Positions 14,629 through 43,518 of a stretch of 64,000 nt of DNA are shown one piece after another. The notes beneath the pieces were generated by a model. That model was not told the DNA's origin and did not search any database. It saw only the letters and a program-made list of their open reading frames with translations. The stretch is taken from positions 120,330 to 184,329 of the forward strand of contig CAYGGK010000001.1 in the NCBI GenBank assembly GCA_964349555.1. Reading direction: 5' to 3'. The DNA comes from an uncultured Candidatus Saccharibacteria bacterium. GTDB taxonomy: Bacteria; Patescibacteriota; Minisyncoccia; Phycocordibacterales; Phycocordibacteraceae. Positions within the stretch are counted from its first letter, which is position 1. The number at the start of each line of letters is the position of its first letter. A program made the position numbers and the translations under genes.

Positions 14629-15930
14629 ATGCAAATAGGGCGTTGGAATCATCAGTCTGCCGGCGCGTCCGGTAGTCATTCAAAATATTCAAAAACCCCA
14701 CGAAGAGAAGACTCTCGTGGTGCTCGTCCGTATGGACGGCCGCAAGGCGGCTTTGGCGGCAGGCCGAGCTTCGGAGGGCGAGGTGGCGGCAAGCGCGGCG
14801 GCTTCGGTTCCTTTGGCGAGACGGAGGCCGAGATTTCAAAGTTCATGAACAAGACAGTCGTAACGACCGAGGAGCCAGTCTTCATTCCCGAACACAAATT
14901 TTCAGACTTCAACATCAATGCGCACTTGAAGGCGAATATCGCCGCACGCAAGTACGAGAGCCCGACTCCGATTCAGGACAAGGCCATTCCGCACGCTCTT
15001 CTCGGCCAAGACGTCGTTGGCCTCGCTGAGACGGGGACAGGGAAGACAGCGGCATTTCTTATTCCGCTTATTGACAAGGTGATGAAACAAAAAGGCGAGC
15101 GCATTCTTATCATGGCGCCGACGCGCGAACTCGCGGTACAGATTGAAAAAGAACTTGCCGGTTTTGCGAAGGGCCTCGGCTTCCGCGGTATGGTCGCGGT
15201 CGGCGGTGCCAACATCAGCCCGCAAATTTCCCAACTGAAGCACAACCCGGCATTTGTTATAGGTACGCCGGGACGGCTCAAAGATTTAATGGAGCGGCGC
15301 GCGCTTGACCTCTCCGGTTTTGGCACCGTCGTTCTTGACGAAGCAGATCGAATGCTGGATATGGGCTTCATCGACGAGATGCGCACCATTCTTTCTAAGA
15401 TGCGCAAAGAACGGCACACGCTCTTCTTCTCCGCGACAATGTCCAAGGAGATCGAGCGGCTTATCGGCGACTTTCTTGACCAGCCCGTCATCATATCGGT
15501 GAAGCAACGCGACACGCCGAGCAGTGTTGACCAAGACGTTGTCCGCATCCCTCGCGGGAAGGATAAATTTGAGGTGCTTGCCGAACTTCTTAAAGACCGC
15601 GAATTTAGCCGCGTGCTCGTCTTTGGCCGAACCAAGTTCGGCGTAGAGAAGCTTGCGAAGGCGCTCTCGCGTCTCCATATCCACGCGGAGAGCATCCACG
15701 GCAATAAGACCCAGGGGGCGCGCCAGAGGGCTCTTGAGACCTTTAAGGCAGGGAAGGTGAGTGTGCTTGTCGCGACCGACGTCGCCGCGCGCGGCCTTGA
15801 TATCCCCGCGGTCTCACACGTTATCAACTACGACCTTCCCTCAACCTACGAGGACTATATCCACCGTATTGGTCGCACTGGCCGCGCCTCTCTCAAAGGT
15901 CGCGCTCTCACCTTCGTCCAGTCCCGCTAA
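14629..15930 (+). CDS. DEAD-box ATP-dependent RNA helicase
   Basis: Q-motif region, AETGTGKT, DEAD (VLDEADRM), SAT and HRIGRTGRA. The N-terminus is Gly/Arg-rich, so the start is uncertain. Confidence 0.85.
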   Translation: MQIGRWNHQSAGASGSHSKYSKTPRREDSRGARPYGRPQGGFGGRPSFGGRGGGKRGGFGSFGETEAEISKFMNKTVVTTEEPVFIPEHKFSDFNINAHLKANIAARKYESPTPIQDKAIPHALLGQDVVGLAETGTGKTAAFLIPLIDKVMKQKGERILIMAPTRELAVQIEKELAGFAKGLGFRGMVAVGGANISPQISQLKHNPAFVIGTPGRLKDLMERRALDLSGFGTVVLDEADRMLDMGFIDEMRTILSKMRKERHTLFFSATMSKEIERLIGDFLDQPVIISVKQRDTPSSVDQDVVRIPRGKDKFEVLAELLKDREFSRVLVFGRTKFGVEKLAKALSRLHIHAESIHGNKTQGARQRALETFKAGKVSVLVATDVAARGLDIPAVSHVINYDLPSTYEDYIHRIGRTGRASLKGRALTFVQSR

Positions 15931-15955
15931 ATGAAGGGTTTACGAAACCTTTCAT
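15931..15955. repeat. REP-like 25-bp hairpin
   Basis: atgaagggtttacgaaacctttcat: an 11-bp stem with one mismatch and a 3-nt loop. Confidence 0.7.
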
Positions 15956-16635
15956 TCCAAAACTAGTTTCGTCATCTTGCTATCATACTCGGCATCGCGA
16001 AGGTATTCGATAAGTGAGTCGCGGTAATCACTGAGCGATTTTTTGAAAAATGAAGTTGTGAGTACGGAAGGGAAGTTCTTCTTACCGACGTAGTCGAGGT
16101 AGCTGCTCCATCGGTATGAATCAAGATAATTCAACGCTTTACTTACACTCCCAATCCCACCCTTGCTACGCACACGCCATTCTCGTGCTTCTTTAAGATA
16201 ATCAAGAGGATTGAGATGAAGGTAGTGCAGGATGTAGAGGAAGTGCGGTTCCCGTTCGATCAAAATTTTCTTCGTACGACCCTGGAAAAGAGTTCCCTGA
16301 CGCTCATATCGTTCGTTGAAATAGTTTGCATAACCAACATTTAATTTACGAAGAAATAAACTAATACCACCCTCGATTCGCTCAGAAAGTAGAAGATGAT
16401 AGTGATTCTTCATGAGAACCCACCCATGAATATCCACCAACAACTTTCGTGCTTTCCTAAATGAAGGGTTTACGAAATCCCTCACGCCTGAAGAGTCAAA
16501 GAGACGCCAAAGATTATCGGCGGGAGCGGAATCGTTAAACTCATAGAGATCATGTACGAAACGTGCGTAGTCTTGGGTATCGAGGAACAAGTCACGGCCA
16601 TCAACCCCGCGGTTTAGTACATGCCACAGCTCCAT
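15952..16635 (-). mobile_element. IS200/RAYT-type Y1 (HUH) transposase
   Basis: WHVLNRG, the HYHLLLS HUH motif, GTLFQGR, YLHLNP and RWSSY. It is flanked by REP-like hairpins. Confidence 0.7.
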
Positions 16636-16650
16636 ACCTTTCCAGTATAC

Positions 16651-16675
16651 ATGAAAGGTTTACGAAACCTTTCAT
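16651..16675. repeat. REP-like perfect 25-bp hairpin
   Basis: atgaaaggtttacgaaacctttcat. A half-copy lies at 16461-16480 inside the transposase CDS. Confidence 0.7.
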
Positions 16676-16807
16676 GGGTGTGAATTATGTATGCGAGTGG
16701 TACCAGCCGCGCTTTCGCCTTTGTTCAGGGAAGATAGACCTTCGTCCATTCCAAACCTCCATAAATAAAGGAGGCCGTCACGAGACGGCCTCCCTACTCT
16801 CCGCACG

Positions 16808-17398
16808 TCACTGCTGATCGAGAAATGTTCTTACCTTCCTGAATGTTTCCCCGCGGTGAGAGACAGCGTTTTCTTCTTCAGTCGACATTTCTGCCCATGA
16901 GCGCGTATCGCCTATAGGAACGAAGAGCGCGCTGTATGGCATTTTTGACTGTGGAGGTACACGTGGGGCTTTGAGCATACTCCCCTGCACCTCTCCTTCA
17001 AATGCGTACTGCTCCCCTGAAGGTGATACGACTACAACGACGGCTTTGAAAGTTGCAGATCGGTCGAGGAGACCACCCATGCGCTTTAAGCAATAGTCTG
17101 TGATTTTTGACGTTTCTGCTCCTTCGCCAGCCCAACGCGCAGGATAGATCCCGGGTTCGCCACCGAGGCCCTTGATGAAGAGCCCGGTATCGTCGGCCAT
17201 CGTCCAAAGGTGCGGCTGTTGGTCGTGAACAAACCACGCCTTCTTCGCGGCGTTTTCCTCCAAGGACTTCCCATCTTCTATGGCTTCGCCTTTAACGCCA
17301 ATATCGTCGAGGGAAAGAATACTGTAGCGTGATCCAGCAAAGGACACTTGTACTTGTTCTCGCTTGCTCGGGTTTCTTGTCGCTAGTATAAGGTTCAT
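16808..17398 (-). CDS. rdgB: Non-canonical purine NTP pyrophosphatase (RdgB/Ham1)
   Basis: ATRNPSK, DTGL, GGEPG, ARWAG and SHRG motifs. Confidence 0.8.
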   Translation of the reverse strand: MNLILATRNPSKREQVQVSFAGSRYSILSLDDIGVKGEAIEDGKSLEENAAKKAWFVHDQQPHLWTMADDTGLFIKGLGGEPGIYPARWAGEGAETSKITDYCLKRMGGLLDRSATFKAVVVVVSPSGEQYAFEGEVQGSMLKAPRVPPQSKMPYSALFVPIGDTRSWAEMSTEEENAVSHRGETFRKVRTFLDQQ

Positions 17399-17437
17399 GA
17401 TGTTTCTCCCTTTGTCCACTCATGAAGATACCATACA

Positions 17438-41497: not shown

Positions 41498-41541
41498 AAC
41501 TATCCCCAATTTTACGCTATAGCGTTATTTATGTGCTGGTG
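41498..41541. repeat. Palindromic element (core TACGCTATAGCGT)
   Basis: tccccaattttacgctatagcgttatttatgtgctggtg. The first 22 nt are the exact reverse complement of 62964-62985. Confidence 0.7.
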
Positions 41542-41563
41542 CCGACTGGTAGGATTCATAAAT

Positions 41564-42145
41564 ATGAAGAAGGTCGAGGCTGAGGCGAAGGTGAAGCGAC
41601 GGAGACGTGATTTGCACAATATCATTTTAGCAACGATTGCTGTCGCCGGGATTCTTACTGTCGCAGCCGTAGCGCCAAACGCAATGCGCCTCCTTAAAAC
41701 GACCGGCATAGACGCCCGTCTTCGGTATAAAACAAAACGGGTGCTTGGGAGATTAAAGCAGAAAGGTGAAATCGAGTTCGTTGAGAAGGATGGCAAGACC
41801 CTTGTACGGCTTACCGAGCGTGGCGAACAAGCGCTCGCGCTACATGCCGAGCGGCTAAGGCTTGCGGGCGAAAGGCCCAAGAAATGGGATCAACGCTACC
41901 GGCTGGTGATGTTTGATGTCCCAGAAAAGCGTAAGCGGACTCGAGATCTCTTGCGTCGAGAAATGAGAGAGGTCGGTTTCCTTCGTATACAGGACAGCGC
42001 GTGGCTCTACCCTTACGACTGTGAAGAGTTTGTTGCGCTTTTGAAAGCGGACTTGCATATCGGGAAGGATGTACTCTACGCCGTCATTGAATCAATTGAA
42101 AACGATGCGTGGATCCGAAAACATTTTAATCTTCGTACAGATTAA
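41564..42145 (+). CDS. Winged-helix + PaaX_C/Cas2-fold domain protein
   Basis: N-terminal TM helix, a wHTH (…LKQKGEIEFVEKDGKTLVRLTERGEQAL…) and a C-terminal YRLVMFDVPEK…GFLRIQDSAWLY β-α-β core. Confidence 0.5.
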   Translation: MKKVEAEAKVKRRRRDLHNIILATIAVAGILTVAAVAPNAMRLLKTTGIDARLRYKTKRVLGRLKQKGEIEFVEKDGKTLVRLTERGEQALALHAERLRLAGERPKKWDQRYRLVMFDVPEKRKRTRDLLRREMREVGFLRIQDSAWLYPYDCEEFVALLKADLHIGKDVLYAVIESIENDAWIRKHFNLRTD

Positions 42146-42165
42146 GACTAACCGCTTCCCGACAT

Positions 42166-42203
42166 CAGCACAATAATTACGCTATAGCGTAATTATTGTG
42201 CTG
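42166..42203. repeat. 38-bp perfect palindrome
   Basis: cagcacaataattacgctatagcgtaattattgtgctg. It shares a TACGCTATAGCGTA core with 41498-41541 and 62958-62985. Confidence 0.8.
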
Positions 42204-42264
42204 GTAGGGGAGGTAAATTTTGGGCGGTTGATTGGGCGGTCGGTATGTGGGTACTTATTATTTT

Positions 42265-43518
42265 TTATTTCAAAACGAGGATGAGGACGCCTTGTTTGCC
42301 CTTGCGCACGAGCGCATAGCCGCCGGAAAGATCGCCGGGGTAAATTTTTTGGTCGGGATTCTCAATCGTCTGGTCTGAAAGAGTAATGCCCTTTCCTTCT
42401 ATCAGCCGGCGAGCGGCGCTTTTAGAAGTTGCAAGGCCACCAACGACAAGCGCGTCAGCGAGCGGGGAGCCGTCAGCGACGTCTTTCTTTGTGAGAACTA
42501 CGGAAGGCGCTTCGGCGAGTGCCACCGCGAGCGCTTCGCGGGAGAGCCCGCTAAACGGCGTGTCGCCGAAGAGGGCGTCAGTCGCGGCCGCGACCTGCGC
42601 GGTCGCGGCGGGCCCGTGAACTATCTCGGTCACAAGTCGAGCGAGCGTCTCCTGGGCTTGCCTCTCGCCTGGGTTCCGTTGATGGAGCTCCATAAGGGCG
42701 CCAATTTCAATAAGCGACAGGAAGGTATACACCTTCAGATAATTTTCAATACCCTCGTCCGGAAGGTTTATCCAAAATTGGTAGAAACGGAAAGGGGACG
42801 TCTTCTTCGCGTCAAGCCAAACGGCGTTCCCTTCGCTCTTGCCGAACTTTTTCCCGCTCGCATCGGTGACGAGTGGAAATGTGAACGCAAATACTTCTTT
42901 CCCGGCACGTTTTCGGATTAAATCGACACCAGAGAGGATGTTTGTCCACTGGTCGGAACCGCCGATCTGAAGGTCCACGCCGTACTTTTCGTTAAGCGTC
43001 AGGTAATCATAACCTTGCAAAAGCGCGTAGGAGAACTCGGTAAAGGAGATGCTCTCGTCTGGTGTGTCGAGACGTTTCTTTATAGTCTCGCGTTTGATGA
43101 GGTCGTTGACTGTGAAATGTTTACCGATATCGCGTAGGAACGGCAATAGCTTAACCTTGGAGAGCCACTCCGCATTGTCTACCATCTTGAAAGGAATCTT
43201 GCCGAGGATCTTTTTCAGCTGTATTTGAAGCGCGCGGGTATTGGCGACGACCGTTTTTTCATCCAGCATCACCCGCTCCCCCACCTCTTTAGGGTCGCCG
43301 ATCATGCCGGTACCACCGCCCACAAGAAAGACAAGTTTATTACCAGTGTCGCCGAGTCGCCTCATGAGGAGCATGAAAACGAGGTGTCCTATGTGGGCTG
43401 AATCGGCCGTTGGATCAATACCAATATATATAGTCCTTGGCGCGGCTAGTATCTTTTCTAAATCAGTAGACGAGTGTACTGCCAGCCCGCGCGCCTTCAG
43501 CTCTTCAGCTAGAGTCAT
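42265..43518 (-). CDS. tyrS: Tyrosyl-tRNA synthetase
   Basis: GIDPTADSAHIGH (HIGH), KFGKS and a C-terminal S4 domain. Confidence 0.85.
   Translation of the reverse strand: MTLAEELKARGLAVHSSTDLEKILAAPRTIYIGIDPTADSAHIGHLVFMLLMRRLGDTGNKLVFLVGGGTGMIGDPKEVGERVMLDEKTVVANTRALQIQLKKILGKIPFKMVDNAEWLSKVKLLPFLRDIGKHFTVNDLIKRETIKKRLDTPDESISFTEFSYALLQGYDYLTLNEKYGVDLQIGGSDQWTNILSGVDLIRKRAGKEVFAFTFPLVTDASGKKFGKSEGNAVWLDAKKTSPFRFYQFWINLPDEGIENYLKVYTFLSLIEIGALMELHQRNPGERQAQETLARLVTEIVHGPAATAQVAAATDALFGDTPFSGLSREALAVALAEAPSVVLTKKDVADGSPLADALVVGGLATSKSAARRLIEGKGITLSDQTIENPDQKIYPGDLSGGYALVRKGKQGVLILVLK

What the first reader, a model, noticed from the sequence alone, without database searches (positions are those of the whole stretch)
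15931..16680. REP/RAYT-like unit: IS200-family Y1 transposase flanked by 25-bp hairpins, with a half-site inside its own CDS
The 227-aa protein has the HUH/Y1 hallmarks HYHLLL and RWSSY. It sits between two copies of the hairpin atgaa(g/a)ggttt-acg-aaacctttcat: one directly after the helicase stop codon, the other 15 nt beyond the transposase start. A third, half-length copy at 16461-16480 lies within the coding sequence and encodes …NPSFRKARK… .

REP/RAYT pairs are best known from Proteobacteria. One here, next to a break in conserved synteny, would be unusual.
Basis: partly seen in the sequence, partly recalled or inferred. Interest (0 to 1): 0.55.

Follow-up and report, generated by a model that had tools for sequence, protein, structure and literature searches.

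The report
RAYT-like nuclease gene with three cognate hairpins
A small-genome (CPR/Parcubacteria-type) bacterium carries a REP/RAYT-style unit: a hairpin-cutting HUH/tyrosine nuclease gene with the same 25-base palindrome in its promoter, inside its coding sequence and on its stop codon. The same three-hairpin layout recurs, with lineage-specific hairpin sequences, in about 70 related genes.

Summary
Window 15952-16635 (-) encodes an intact 227-aa HUH/Y1 nuclease. Its closest solved structure is E. coli RAYT bound to a REP hairpin.

- **Active site.** The residues are H78-Y-H80, Y138 and N142. The catalytic Tyr is therefore Y138, not the Tyr in 'RWSSY'.
- **Hairpins in the window.** The palindrome ATGAARGGTTT-ACG-AAACCTTTCAT occurs only at 15931-15955 (overlapping the gene's TGA stop) and at 16651-16675 (15 nt before the ATG). 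A decayed third copy lies at 16461-16485 (codons 51-59).
- **Hairpins in relatives.** Of 72 related genes from metagenomes, 67-71 carry hairpins at the same three places. The hairpin sequence differs between lineages, but the three copies within one locus match each other (85% of loci, against 6% between loci). The internal copy is read in different frames and has the strongest synonymous-site conservation in the gene. The DNA palindrome is conserved, not the peptide.
- **Dispersal.** Relatives carry extra cognate hairpins at low density, often in frame inside housekeeping genes, and there is a gain/loss difference between 99%-identical strains.
- **Insertion site.** The unit sits in a variable slot between a DEAD-box helicase gene and recR, bracketed by a duplicated helicase 3' end. 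Some relatives have an empty slot.

It is a REPtron-like system that is low-copy and lacks the GTAG foot. I rate it a new variant of a known kind.

The parts
15952..16635 (-). RAYT-like HUH/Y1 nuclease gene, 227 aa, intact
   Evidence: ORF. Pfam Y1_Tnp 22.9 bits against a cutoff of 23; NCBIfam REP_Tyr_transpos 33.9 bits, E 2.6e-8. AF2 pLDDT 89.9. Foldseek top hit 4er8_A, E 2.2e-5. pN 0.08-0.16 against saturated pS 0.74-0.84 versus relatives.
16396..16404 (-). HUH motif codons H78-Y79-H80
   Evidence: Invariant in A1 and A4. Aligned with H59-M60-H61 of E. coli TnpA_REP; the active-site role is stated in PMC3479197.
16207..16224 (-). Y motif Y138-L-H-L-N142-P143 (catalytic Tyr and metal ligand Asn)
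   Evidence: Y138 is invariant and N142/P143 nearly invariant in A4. Aligned with Y115...N119-P120 of E. coli TnpA_REP; roles from PMC3479197.
15931..15955 (.). DN hairpin: 11-bp stem, 3-nt loop. It follows the helicase TAA directly and contains the RAYT TGA stop (15952-15954).
   Evidence: A hairpin at or just after the stop codon is found in 65-67 of 72 relatives.
16461..16485 (.). IN hairpin site inside the CDS (codons 51-59, VRDFVNPSF). It is decayed here: loop, 3' arm and flank are conserved, the 5' arm has diverged.
   Evidence: It is a full cognate hairpin in most relatives. Identical-codon fraction peaks at 0.73 against a gene mean of 0.42. The encoded peptide is the only low-confidence loop of the model.
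16651..16675 (.). UP hairpin: perfect palindrome, extended to CATG...CATG at 16650-16676, 15 nt upstream of the ATG
   Evidence: Present in 68-71 of 72 relatives.
16644..16649 (-). TATACT box between the UP hairpin and the ATG: putative -10 element; the mRNA is probably leaderless or nearly so
   Evidence: Position-specific counts show T at -12 in 47, A at -11 in 48 and T at -7 in 48 of 72 genes. A TAYRNT box ends 6-9 nt before the ATG in 45 genes. The promoter role is inferred. The strict sigma-70 scan found nothing.
16679..16687 (-). DnaA-box-like 9-mer just 5' of the UP hairpin (TAATTCACA here; TTATCCACA in relatives)
   Evidence: At least 8/9 match to TTWTNCACA in 26 of 68 loci, against 2.45% of random windows. 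Function is untested.
16697..16765 (+). Decayed relic copy of the helicase 3' end (GTSRAFAFVQGR*), a direct repeat of 15868-15930
   Evidence: Repeats D10, D12 and D16. Intact-frame relics in L042, L047 and L052. Flank-repeat z-scores 15.7, 7.6, 5.1 and 3.2.
14629..15930 (+). DEAD-box helicase gene (neighbour). Its 3' end is the insertion target and the functional repeat copy.
16768..16795 (-). Terminator-like hairpin of the upstream Ham1/RdgB gene (16808-17419). It insulates the RAYT promoter region and is not a member of the hairpin family.

Best explanation
This is a REPtron-like unit from a Parcubacteria/CPR-specific clade of class-2 TnpA_Y1 (RAYT-type) enzymes.

**The unit.**
- The 227-aa protein is a single-strand-DNA endonuclease/ligase with an intact HUH-Tyr active site.
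- Its cognate DNA site is the 25-nt palindrome: ATG...CAT foot, 11-bp stem, CGT/ACG loop.
- The palindrome is kept at three fixed places in and around the gene. One is in the promoter, between a DnaA-box-like motif and a -10 box. One is inside the coding sequence, in a disordered surface loop between helix A and the HUH strand. One is on the stop codon.

**Shown.**
- Fold and catalytic residues.
- The three-site layout in about 70 relatives.
- Co-variation of the three copies.
- Nucleotide-level rather than peptide-level conservation of the internal copy.
- Dispersed cognate copies and a recent gain/loss in relatives.
- Insertion of the unit into the helicase 3' end.

**Inferred.**
- The enzyme binds the extruded hairpin on single-stranded DNA, at replication forks or transcription bubbles.
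- It cuts and rejoins next to the foot. This occasionally copies the hairpin to new sites and overwrites existing copies, which keeps all copies in a genome alike.
- Binding to the promoter copy autoregulates the gene.

In this genome the system is nearly quiescent. The 64 kb contains no dispersed copies, and the internal copy is half decayed.
For: **Protein.**
- Y1_Tnp and REP_Tyr_transpos homology; 83 of 86 relatives hit Y1_Tnp.
- Profile hit to 4er8_A, E 0.007; hhalign E 2.3e-5.
- Foldseek top hit 4er8_A, E 2.2e-5, TM 0.68 normalised to the target.
- H78, H80 and Y138 are invariant and N142 nearly invariant. They align with the E. coli active site.
- Strong purifying selection.

**Hairpins.**
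- Exact copies occur only at the gene ends.
- The three-site layout holds across L038-L116.
- The UP core matches the IN zone at 85% identity or better in 85% of loci and the DN zone in 82%. Between loci the figures are 5.7% and 6.0%.
- The internal site is read as MKGFVNPS, VGFTKPY or SGLRNRS in different homologs.
- Identical-codon fraction peaks at codons 50-60.
- The encoded peptide is the only low-pLDDT loop.

**Mobility in relatives.**
- Cognate hairpins occur at 7.1 per 100 kb of flank, non-cognate at 1.07.
- Copies lie in frame in FolD, TsaD, TGT, UvrB, LeuRS, TrmD, RecR and transketolase.
- At one transketolase site, 10 of 15 orthologs are empty and 5 are filled. Where the local RAYT hairpin was determined (L100, L073; L086 inferred from the near-identical strain L089), the filling hairpin matches it; in L068 it belongs to another hairpin family of that contig.
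- L086 carries a doublet and L089/L087 are empty, at 99% flank identity.

**Insertion history.** Empty slots in L118 and L121; duplicated helicase 3' end.
Against: - No biochemical evidence exists for this clade.
- The window holds no dispersed copy, and reference genomes of relatives have at most 4 exact matches each. 'Repetitive' is hardly met.
- The hairpins lack the GT[AG]G foot and the bulges that E. coli TnpA_REP needs.
- The protein scores far below the NCBIfam RAYT cut-off, 33.9 against 80 bits.
- Its motif set resembles TnpA_Y1 subclass 2.1, for which no REPs were reported.
- Loop orientation flips freely between sites and lineages. Hairpin-induced template switching can do that without any enzyme.
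- The L086/L089 junction is not a clean insertion. It coincides with a patch of divergence and a drop in identity from 99% to 96%.
- The promoter and autoregulation part rests only on conserved position, and the strict sigma-70 scan found no promoter.
Confidence: 0.78

Rival explanations
1. It is an autonomous IS200/IS605-type insertion sequence. The two flanking hairpins are the left and right ends, and the whole gene-plus-ends unit transposes.
For: - The unit was inserted at some time. Equally close relatives have an empty helicase-recR junction.
- A duplicated helicase 3' end brackets it.
- Homologs 82-84% identical lie in other contexts (L009, L038).
- The fold also matches IS608 and ISDra2 TnpA.
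Against: - There is one copy in 64 kb.
- At least six distinct relatives have it in the same slot and orientation, with divergence like the neighbours: RAYT 73-85%, helicase 81-90%, DnaB 88-94%.
- Synonymous sites are saturated while pN is only 0.08-0.16.
- The Y motif is Y-x3-NP (class 2), not the Y-x3-Q of IS200.
- The protein is 227 aa, against about 150 aa for IS200 transposases.
- Both ends carry the same symmetric palindrome rather than distinct imperfect LE and RE hairpins.
- Paralogs on one contig are diverged and each has its own hairpin family.
- No relative was found in viral contigs.
Confidence: 0.1
2. The hairpins are ordinary host regulatory structures: an operator in the promoter and a bidirectional terminator or mRNA stabiliser between convergent genes. 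The enzyme no longer cuts or moves them, so the similarity of the copies reflects protein-binding regulation only.
For: - The DN hairpin lies between convergent genes within 0-20 nt of both stops, as is typical of convergent REPs.
- The UP hairpin lies between a conserved DnaA-box-like motif and a -10 box.
- The window has no dispersed copies.
Against: - No T-run follows the DN hairpin.
- There is no sense-strand excess of G.T over A.C mismatches, so nothing supports RNA-level selection.
- The catalytic residues are invariant under strong purifying selection.
- Relatives show cognate copies in frame in unrelated genes, with presence/absence differences between near-identical strains.
Confidence: 0.09
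3. It is a degenerate IS remnant: a dead gene with leftover ends.
For: The internal copy is half decayed. The helicase relic is decayed. The Pfam score is just under threshold.
Against: - The ORF is full-length, with all active-site residues.
- The model is confident, pLDDT 89.9.
- There are 3,724 close relatives of the same length.
- pN is far below pS.
- Both flanking hairpins are perfect or near-perfect although synonymous sites are saturated against relatives.
Confidence: 0.02

Closest known systems
REPtron: E. coli TnpA_REP (RayT) with flanking REP/BIME sequences (TnpA_Y1 subclass 2.2; PDB 4er8)
   Same: HUH plus Y-x3-NP active site. It is the closest solved fold. The gene is flanked by its own cognate hairpins, is single-copy, shows hairpin-enzyme specificity that co-varies between lineages, and dispersed singlets and inverted doublets occur in relatives.
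   Different: - About 13% sequence identity; 227 aa against 165 aa, with a different C-terminal tail; below the NCBIfam cut-off.
- The hairpin is a near-perfect 25-nt palindrome with an ATG...CAT foot, no GTAG tetranucleotide and no bulge.
- Copy number is very low.
- Many copies in relatives are intragenic.
- There is a fixed third copy inside the gene.
TnpA_Y1 subclass 2.4 (Bertels group 4; Cyanobacteria/Bacteroidetes), in which REPs are inserted in frame within the tnpA_REP gene (Quentin et al. 2018, PMC6006769)
   Same: A cognate REP lies inside the enzyme's own coding sequence without breaking the frame, in a peripheral variable loop. REPs also flank the gene.
   Different: [quoted passage not shown] Here it lies before HuH, between helix A and strand 2 (codons 51-59).
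- The motif sets differ: NH[IFV]H/WQ/YIxNNP against NHYH/FQ/YLHLNP.
- Subclass 2.4 REPs carry GT[AG]G feet.
- Here the internal site sits at one position in essentially every family member examined.
TnpA_Y1 subclass 2.1 / TIRYT (Quentin et al. 2018; Di Nocera et al. 2013)
   Same: Key motifs NH[YF]H, FQ, Y[IV]HLNP-like and an 'SS' tail motif (RWSS). Length is about 230-240 aa, and copy number is low (one search compared).
   Different: Subclass 2.1 was reported to have no REPs. Some members have terminal inverted repeats with GGGGWSAS, and C-terminal HTH domains (Bac_DnaA_C, HTH_23/28). Here there are clear cognate hairpins and no Pfam HTH hit, and a DnaA-box-like motif sits in the DNA instead.
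Intragenic REPs and Rickettsia palindromic elements (RPE) inserted in frame in protein genes (Di Nocera et al. 2013, PMC3733652)
   Same: In relatives of this genome the cognate hairpins, as singlets and doublets, sit in frame in repair, replication and translation genes (UvrB, RecR, Pol III delta', LeuRS, TsaD, TGT, TrmD, FolD, transketolase) at linkers and loops.
   Different: - The elements are much shorter, encoding 8-20 aa.
- They are linked to a specific RAYT-like gene whose own hairpins they match.
- The same host-gene sites are occupied in different lineages by different, lineage-cognate hairpins.
- None is present in this window.
IS200/IS605 family insertion sequences (IS608, ISDra2)
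   Same: Same HUH/Y1 fold and hairpin-recognising chemistry. The unit shows signs of a past insertion.
   Different: The Y motif is Y-x3-NP rather than Y-x3-Q. There are no multiple identical copies and no distinct LE/RE. The position is syntenic across relatives and the gene is under strong purifying selection.

Membership tests
HUH / Y1 transposase superfamily (Pfam PF01797 Y1_Tnp; TnpA_Y1) | His-hydrophobic-His motif on a beta strand | tested here: met
   H78-Y79-H80. H78 and H80 are invariant in A1 and A4 and align to H59/H61 of 4er8.
HUH / Y1 transposase superfamily (Pfam PF01797 Y1_Tnp; TnpA_Y1) | Single catalytic Tyr on helix D | tested here: met
   Y138 is invariant and aligned to Y115 of E. 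coli TnpA_REP. The role of Y115 is given in PMC3479197.
HUH / Y1 transposase superfamily (Pfam PF01797 Y1_Tnp; TnpA_Y1) | TnpA fold | tested here: met
   AF2 model pLDDT 89.9. Foldseek: 4er8_A E 2.2e-5 and TM 0.68 normalised to the target, followed by IS608 and ISDra2 TnpAs.
HUH / Y1 transposase superfamily (Pfam PF01797 Y1_Tnp; TnpA_Y1) | Score at or above the Pfam gathering threshold | tested here: inconclusive
   22.9 bits against a cut-off of 23 for this protein. 83 of 86 relatives match, best E 3.7e-12.
RAYT / TnpA_REP with REPs (REPtron) | Y-x3-N-P motif of class 2 | tested here: met
   Y138-L-H-L-N142-P143. The class definition is in PMC6006769.
RAYT / TnpA_REP with REPs (REPtron) | NCBIfam NF047646 equivalog score of at least 80 bits | tested here: not met
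   33.9 bits, E 2.6e-8.
RAYT / TnpA_REP with REPs (REPtron) | Gene flanked on both sides by its cognate palindromes | tested here: met
   for the window. Found in 65-71 of 72 relatives, with within-locus matching.
RAYT / TnpA_REP with REPs (REPtron) | Palindrome repeated many times (tens to hundreds) elsewhere in the same genome, mostly extragenic | tested here: not met
   No other copy in the 64-kb window. At most 4 exact-pattern matches per reference genome. Relatives carry about 7 cognate copies per 100 kb of flank, many intragenic. The rest of the source genome could not be read.
RAYT / TnpA_REP with REPs (REPtron) | Conserved 5' GT[AG]G tetranucleotide at the hairpin foot | tested here: not met
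   The feet are ATG...CAT, or TATGG, AAATAAGG, TCTGGG in other lineages.
RAYT / TnpA_REP with REPs (REPtron) | Single copy, mainly vertical inheritance | tested here: inconclusive
   The window has one copy. The slot is shared by at least six relatives with neighbour-like divergence. However, equally close relatives have empty slots, and other homologs lie in other contexts.
RAYT / TnpA_REP with REPs (REPtron) | Enzyme binds and cleaves its REP in vitro | not testable with these tools
   Needs purified protein and oligonucleotides.
IS200/IS605 insertion sequence (TnpA_IS200, subclass 1.1) | Y-x3-Q motif and a protein of about 150 aa | tested here: not met
   YLHLNP, 227 aa.
IS200/IS605 insertion sequence (TnpA_IS200, subclass 1.1) | Several near-identical copies per genome with distinct LE and RE subterminal hairpins | tested here: not met
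   One copy in the window. Both ends carry the same palindrome. Paralogs on one contig are diverged and have different hairpins.
TnpA_Y1 subclass 2.1 / TIRYT | Motifs NH[YF]H, FQ, Y[IV]HLNP, SS tail; about 238 aa | tested here: met
   NHYH, LFQGR, YLHLNP (L in place of I/V), RWSS, 227 aa (compared with Table 1). The comparison is by motif only; no phylogeny was made.
TnpA_Y1 subclass 2.1 / TIRYT | No REPs; terminal inverted repeats with GGGGWSAS; C-terminal HTH (Bac_DnaA_C, HTH_23/28) | tested here: not met
   Clear cognate hairpins are present. No HTH domain appears in Pfam scans of the protein or of 86 relatives.
TnpA_Y1 subclass 2.4 (REP inside tnpA_REP) | [quoted passage not shown] | tested here: not met
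   An in-frame internal hairpin is present, but at codons 51-59, before HuH (H78), and it lacks the GTAG foot (compared).

The most novel reading that the evidence does not exclude
In this CPR-wide family the enzyme gene is built as a fixed cassette: DnaA-box-like motif, hairpin, -10 box, leaderless ORF with an obligatory in-frame hairpin, and a hairpin on the stop codon.

The enzyme would act as a resident single-strand-DNA editor. It would continually rewrite a small set of hairpins at fixed, permissive sites in essential genes (transketolase, LeuRS, FolD, TsaD, RecR and others) and in its own gene. All copies would therefore stay matched to the enzyme's specificity, giving enzyme-driven concerted evolution. 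Its expression would be tied to replication through DnaA.

That would be a domesticated hairpin-maintenance system in minimal genomes, not a decaying transposon.
Probability: 0.22. Interest if true: 0.8.

Novelty: new variant of a known kind. Interest (0 to 1): 0.55.

Why it matters
REP/RAYT systems have been described almost entirely from Proteobacteria, Cyanobacteria and Bacteroidetes. How RAYTs move or maintain REPs is still unknown.

This locus opens a large, uncharacterised RAYT-like clade in Parcubacteria-type (CPR) genomes, with thousands of database members. Three properties make it useful:

- **A simple, regular architecture.** There are three cognate hairpins at fixed positions, and hairpin sequence and enzyme lineage co-vary cleanly. 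That gives a natural table of enzyme-hairpin specificity pairs for biochemical work.
- **A visible effect on minimal genomes.** Because the hairpins are few and short, gains, losses and loop flips can be followed in metagenomes. In-frame palindromes that match the local enzyme are tolerated inside essential genes.
- **A revised view of one protein group.** The motif set of TnpA_Y1 subclass 2.1, reported as REP-less, can go with cognate hairpins.

For this genome alone the finding is modest: one quiescent unit inserted at the 3' end of a helicase gene.

Tried and rejected
- **Shallow profile.** A PDB sequence search and hhalign with the shallow alignment A1 gave nothing useful. AlphaFold with A1 gave pLDDT 47.7 and was discarded. 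Both worked after widening the alignment to A4.
- **Rfam.** The only hit on 15400-17300 is a sub-threshold L20-leader match over the Ham1 terminator (26.4 against 58.7 bits). I take it as chance.
- **Promoter scan.** The strict sigma-70 scan found no promoter. The -10 box proposal rests on comparative position only.
- **RNA-level role.** I tested for a sense-strand excess of G.T over A.C mismatches. There is none (IN site: 16 G.T against 27 A.C), so this role is not supported.
- **The motif TTATCCACA as a -35 element.** Rejected, because the spacer to the -10 box is about 29 nt.
- **The same motif as part of the helicase relic.** Rejected, because it also occurs in RAYT loci of other contexts.
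- **Flank duplication as a general rule.** The direct repeat of flanking DNA is significant only in the helicase-slot clade.
- **Phage carriage.** No RAYT relative and no hairpin in viral contigs.
- **Non-CPR hits of the hairpin pattern.** Hits in Chloroflexi/Aquidulcis, Pirellulaceae, Geoglobus and others have different feet (gaccc...gggtc) or are isolated. About 4 chance matches are expected by my own arithmetic, so they were set aside.
- **Organism name.** The cluster look-up gave none.
- **Revised view on synteny.** I first thought the synteny-break remark was wrong. I changed my mind after finding empty and differently filled slots.
Full report
**1. What is in the window**

The minus-strand ORF 15952-16635 encodes 227 aa. 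The palindrome ATGAARGGTTT-ACG-AAACCTTTCAT occurs at 15931-15955 and 16651-16675 and nowhere else in the 64 kb. No match is expected in shuffles, and a de novo scan for palindromes found no other family member.

- **DN copy.** It starts right after the TAA of the convergent DEAD-box helicase gene (14629-15930). It contains the TGA stop of the 227-aa ORF.
- **UP copy.** It ends 15 nt before the ATG.
- **Folding.** As single-stranded DNA both copies fold much better than shuffled controls (z -3.8 to -8.2).
- **IN copy.** A third copy lies in the CDS. The 28 nt at 16458-16485 are 86% identical to the DN copy, with 21 nt exact. Its other arm has diverged, and in this genome it folds only weakly.

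**2. The protein**

- **Family scans.** Pfam Y1_Tnp scores 22.9 bits against a cut-off of 23. NCBIfam REP-associated tyrosine transposase scores 33.9 bits (E 2.6e-8), far below the equivalog cut-off of 80.
- **Family size.** There are 3,724 close database relatives. The 120 listed are 66-85% identical (plus the 100%-identical self-match) and nearly all 218-241 aa long. The few named sources are Kaiserbacteria, Paceibacterota, Minisyncoccota or 'bacterium' MAGs. An exhaustive search finds 15,065 clusters (50% identity) at E<=1e-3, and 127 at E<=1e-30.
- **Profile comparison.** A profile of 86 relatives (32-85% identical) hits E. coli TnpA_REP (4er8) as the best solved structure, E 0.007. hhalign gives E 2.3e-5.
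- **Structure.** The AlphaFold model built on that alignment is confident (pLDDT 89.9, pTM 0.86). Its best Foldseek match is 4er8_A, 'REP associated tyrosine transposase bound to a REP hairpin' (E 2.2e-5). IS608 and ISDra2 transposases follow.
- **Active site.** The alignments place H78-Y-H80 on H59-M-H61, Y138 on Y115 and N142 on N119. The crystal-structure paper names these as the active site (PMC3479197). H78, H80 and Y138 are invariant and N142 nearly invariant across the 86 sequences.
- **Correction.** The catalytic Tyr is therefore Y138 in HYLHLNP. 'RWSSY' is the 'SS' tail motif listed for several class-2 TnpA_Y1 subclasses.
- **Selection.** Against relatives, non-synonymous differences are 0.08-0.16 per site while synonymous sites are saturated at 0.74-0.84. 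The gene is under strong purifying selection and is not a remnant.

**3. The three-hairpin layout is a family trait, and the copies co-vary**

I fetched 79 related loci from metagenomes and others by exact-protein look-up. Of 72 unique genes with full flanks, a palindrome was found upstream in 68, inside the CDS in 59, and at or after the stop in 65. With a looser criterion the counts are 71, 67 and 67.

- **Lineage-specific sequences.** Examples are ATGATGGACATCGTAAGTCCATCAT, ATGAAAGACCTCGGAGGTCTTTCAT, CATGTGGGACGTCGTACGTCCCACATG, AAATAAGGACTTCGTAAGTCCTTATTT and TCTGGGTTTACGAGACCCAGA.
- **Matching within a locus.** The central 19 nt of the upstream copy match the internal zone at 85% identity or better in 85% of loci, and the downstream zone in 82%. 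Between loci the figures are 5.7% and 6.0%.
- **Distant paralogs.** Paralogs only about 35% identical (L086, L111) also show matching internal and downstream palindromes.
- **DNA, not peptide.** The internal copy falls in the most variable stretch of the protein alignment. It is translated in different frames and loop orientations: MKGFVNPS, VGFTKPY, SGLRNRS.
- **Synonymous sites.** Among 24 genes at least 68% identical, identical-codon use among same-amino-acid pairs peaks at codons 50-60. It is 0.73 there against 0.42 overall.
- **Location in the protein.** Residues 41-60 are the one internal low-confidence stretch of the model (the last few C-terminal residues are also lower). The hairpin therefore sits in a surface loop between helix A and the strand that leads to HUH.

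What is conserved is the palindrome in the DNA, not the peptide.

In the window's own sub-clade the internal site is the imperfect ATGAGGGATTTCGTAAACCCTTCAT. The window has GTG at its 5' end.

**4. Promoter context (inferred)**

- **-10 box.** At -12 to -7 from the ATG most genes have TAnnnT. T at -12 is found in 47, A at -11 in 48 and T at -7 in 48 of 72 genes. A TATACT-like box ends 6-9 nt before the ATG in 45 genes. This fits a -10 element and a leaderless or nearly leaderless mRNA. The window has TATACT at 16644-16649.
- **Position of the UP hairpin.** It lies 1-5 nt upstream of that box. It would then be promoter DNA rather than transcript.
- **DnaA-box-like motif.** Immediately 5' of the hairpin, 26 of 68 loci have a 9-mer matching the DnaA-box consensus TTWTNCACA at 8 of 9 positions or better, typically TTATCCACA. 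Only 2.45% of random windows do. The window has TAATTCACA (+ strand 16679-16687).
- **No RNA-level signal.** G.T mismatches show no sense-strand excess over A.C, so nothing points to an RNA-level role.
- **Other scans.** The strict sigma-70 scan found nothing, and Rfam gave only a sub-threshold chance hit.

**5. Are the hairpins dispersed?**

- **In this window.** They are not.
- **In reference genomes.** A scan of 185,579 species genomes with a slightly degenerate 21-mer of this hairpin class found only 28 stretches. About 18 are in Parcubacteria-type MAGs, some labelled Saccharibacteria. No genome has more than 4 matches, and in several all matches are the RAYT's own three copies.
- **In flanks of related loci.** Hairpins cognate to the local RAYT occur at 7.1 per 100 kb, as singlets and inverted doublets. 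Non-cognate hairpins occur at 1.07 per 100 kb.
- **Inside host genes.** Many copies lie in frame in housekeeping genes, whose identities were confirmed by Pfam: FolD (between its two domains), TsaD, TGT, UvrB, LeuRS, TrmD, RecR (the Toprim/RecR_C linker), Pol III delta', a small methyltransferase and transketolase.
- **The transketolase site.** At one site, 10 of 15 orthologs are empty (RMD-GKKx-RVYC). Five carry a singlet or doublet. Where the local RAYT hairpin was determined (L100, L073; L086 inferred from its near-identical strain L089), the insert matches it. In L068 the insert belongs to another hairpin family present on that contig.
- **A recent event.** Two strains 99% identical upstream differ by a 45-nt doublet there (L086 against L089/L087). 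The junction is not clean. It coincides with a short diverged patch and a drop to 96% identity, so recombination may be involved.
- **Shared sites.** LeuRS carries different hairpin classes at one shared site (L048, L020). FolD and TsaD carry the window's own hairpin class at shared sites in three and two genomes respectively.

The family thus behaves like low-copy REPs or REPINs that are tolerated inside genes.

**6. How the unit got here**

- **Shared slot.** In window-like genomes the order YqeY-RmuC-L21-helicase | RecR-DnaB-CysS is conserved. The RAYT sits between helicase and RecR, in the same orientation, in at least six distinct relatives. RAYT identity is 73-85% and the neighbours are 77-95% identical.
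- **Empty or different slots.** Equally close relatives have the helicase and RecR stops 6 nt or 67 nt apart, with no hairpin (L121, L118). Others have different genes in the slot (L119, L120). Ham1/RdgB is in the slot only in the window.
- **Duplicated helicase end.** The unit is bracketed by a direct repeat of the helicase 3' end. The functional end lies next to the DN hairpin. A relic lies just beyond the UP hairpin and the DnaA-box-like motif. The relic still reads TGRxxLKGKxxTFVQxR* in L042, L047 and L052. In L052 it abuts the RecR stop as in the empty site. In the window it is decayed (about 16697-16765). Flank-repeat z-scores are 15.7, 7.6, 5.1 and 3.2.
- **Interpretation.** The unit was inserted once into the helicase 3' end, with a duplication of about 57-75 nt or with a replacement 3' end, and was then inherited vertically. 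The mechanism of that event is unknown, because Y1 transposition makes no such duplication.

**7. Comparison with what is known**

- **The general arrangement.** RAYT genes flanked by cognate REPs (REPtrons), enzyme-REP co-evolution and REPIN doublets are established (PMC2817692, PMC3116915, PMC6006769).
- **REPs inside other genes.** Intragenic REPs in repair and translation genes have been reported for several phyla.
- **Differences here.**
  - The lineage is different: searches of the library for RAYT or palindromes with CPR, Parcubacteria or Patescibacteria found nothing relevant.
  - The protein's motif set is that of subclass 2.1, which was reported to have no REPs.
  - The hairpins have an ATG...CAT foot and no GT[AG]G.
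  - Copy number is very low.
  - The internal site is fixed before HuH in essentially all members.
  - The promoter layout with a DnaA-box-like motif is conserved.

On membership, the locus passes the tests for the HUH/Y1 superfamily and for 'gene flanked by cognate palindromes'. It fails those for the NCBIfam RAYT equivalog, the GTAG foot, high copy number and IS200.

**8. Verdict**

It works like a REPtron. I would not file it as a canonical REP/RAYT member. I rate it a new variant of that kind, typical of a large uncharacterised Parcubacteria clade. In this genome it looks nearly quiescent.

The co-variation and the layout are shown. Cleavage, hairpin copying or overwriting, and autoregulation are inferred. 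Interest is moderate (0.55). It would be higher if the fixed cassette and the maintenance of hairpins in essential genes prove to be an active, domesticated function.

Noticed in passing
L021:6145-6169 (FolD), L037:7753-7777, L019:2669-2693, L023:4149-4201 (TsaD doublet), L033:4799-4823, L030:4855-4879 (TGT), L031:1599-1623 (UvrB), L020:1201-1225 and L048:3110-3136 (LeuRS), L016:3541-3565 (TrmD), L029:2268-2292 (RecR), L011:5921-5945 (Pol III delta'): In related CPR genomes the same or lineage-cognate 25-nt hairpins lie in frame inside essential genes, at domain linkers and loops, as singlets or inverted doublets encoding peptides such as MKGFVNPS-LDEGFTKPF. In LeuRS the same site is occupied in different lineages by different hairpin classes.
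   Followed up: partly
L086:14147-14221 compared with L089:7071-7100 and L087:8297-8326 (transketolase N gene): Strains 99% identical upstream differ by a 45-nt hairpin doublet in transketolase. The junction has a short diverged patch, and identity falls to about 96% downstream. The hairpin site may coincide with a recombination breakpoint.
   Followed up: partly
window 16697-16765 compared with 15868-15930; L042:2595-2690, L047:1365-1470, L052 upstream of the RAYT gene: The RAYT unit is bracketed by a direct repeat of the last 19-25 codons of the DEAD-box helicase gene, one functional and one relic. This is an att-like or long target-duplication signature that Y1 transposition is not expected to produce.
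   Followed up: partly
window 16679-16687 (- strand TAATTCACA); relatives: A DnaA-box-like 9-mer (TTATCCACA) lies immediately 5' of the promoter hairpin in 26 of 68 family loci, against 2.45% of random windows. Other clades have TTTCCGCAAC at that place.
   Followed up: partly
L049 and L064 (same 104,889-bp contig); L068 and L112 (same 19,393-bp contig); L061 (two genes); L086-L088 (hits at 65%, 47%, 37% and 27% identity): Some genomes carry two or three diverged RAYT-like paralogs, each with its own hairpin family. Mixed arrays of two hairpin types occur downstream of some genes (L102, L068, L112).
   Followed up: partly
L045, L050, L061, L068, L073, L076, L086-L089, L096, L100, L108-L111, L113: In other clades of the family the RAYT gene lies within a few kb of the transketolase N-subunit gene. 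This is a second recurrent neighbourhood, distinct from the helicase-recR slot.
   Followed up: no
window 16808-17419 (-): The Ham1/RdgB-like gene next to the RAYT is present in this slot only in the window's genome. L006 has an unrelated 198-aa ORF there, and L042/L047 have short ORFs with Cys-rich motifs.
   Followed up: no
window 42164-42205: A long near-perfect palindrome (18 pairs, 4-nt loop: ATCAGCACAATAATTACGCTATAGCGTAATTATTGTGCTGGT) lies between convergent ORFs 41531-42145 (+) and 42265-43518 (-). It is probably a bidirectional terminator and is unrelated to the RAYT hairpin.
   Followed up: no
L010:94-114, L012:6034-6054, L035:6789-6809 (Aquidulcis/Chloroflexi MAGs): These genomes have a longer hairpin, gacccGAAGG(G/A)TTTACGAAA(C/T)CCTTCgggtc, that shares the core of the CPR hairpin. 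I did not examine whether it is a chance resemblance, a terminator or another REP family.
   Followed up: no
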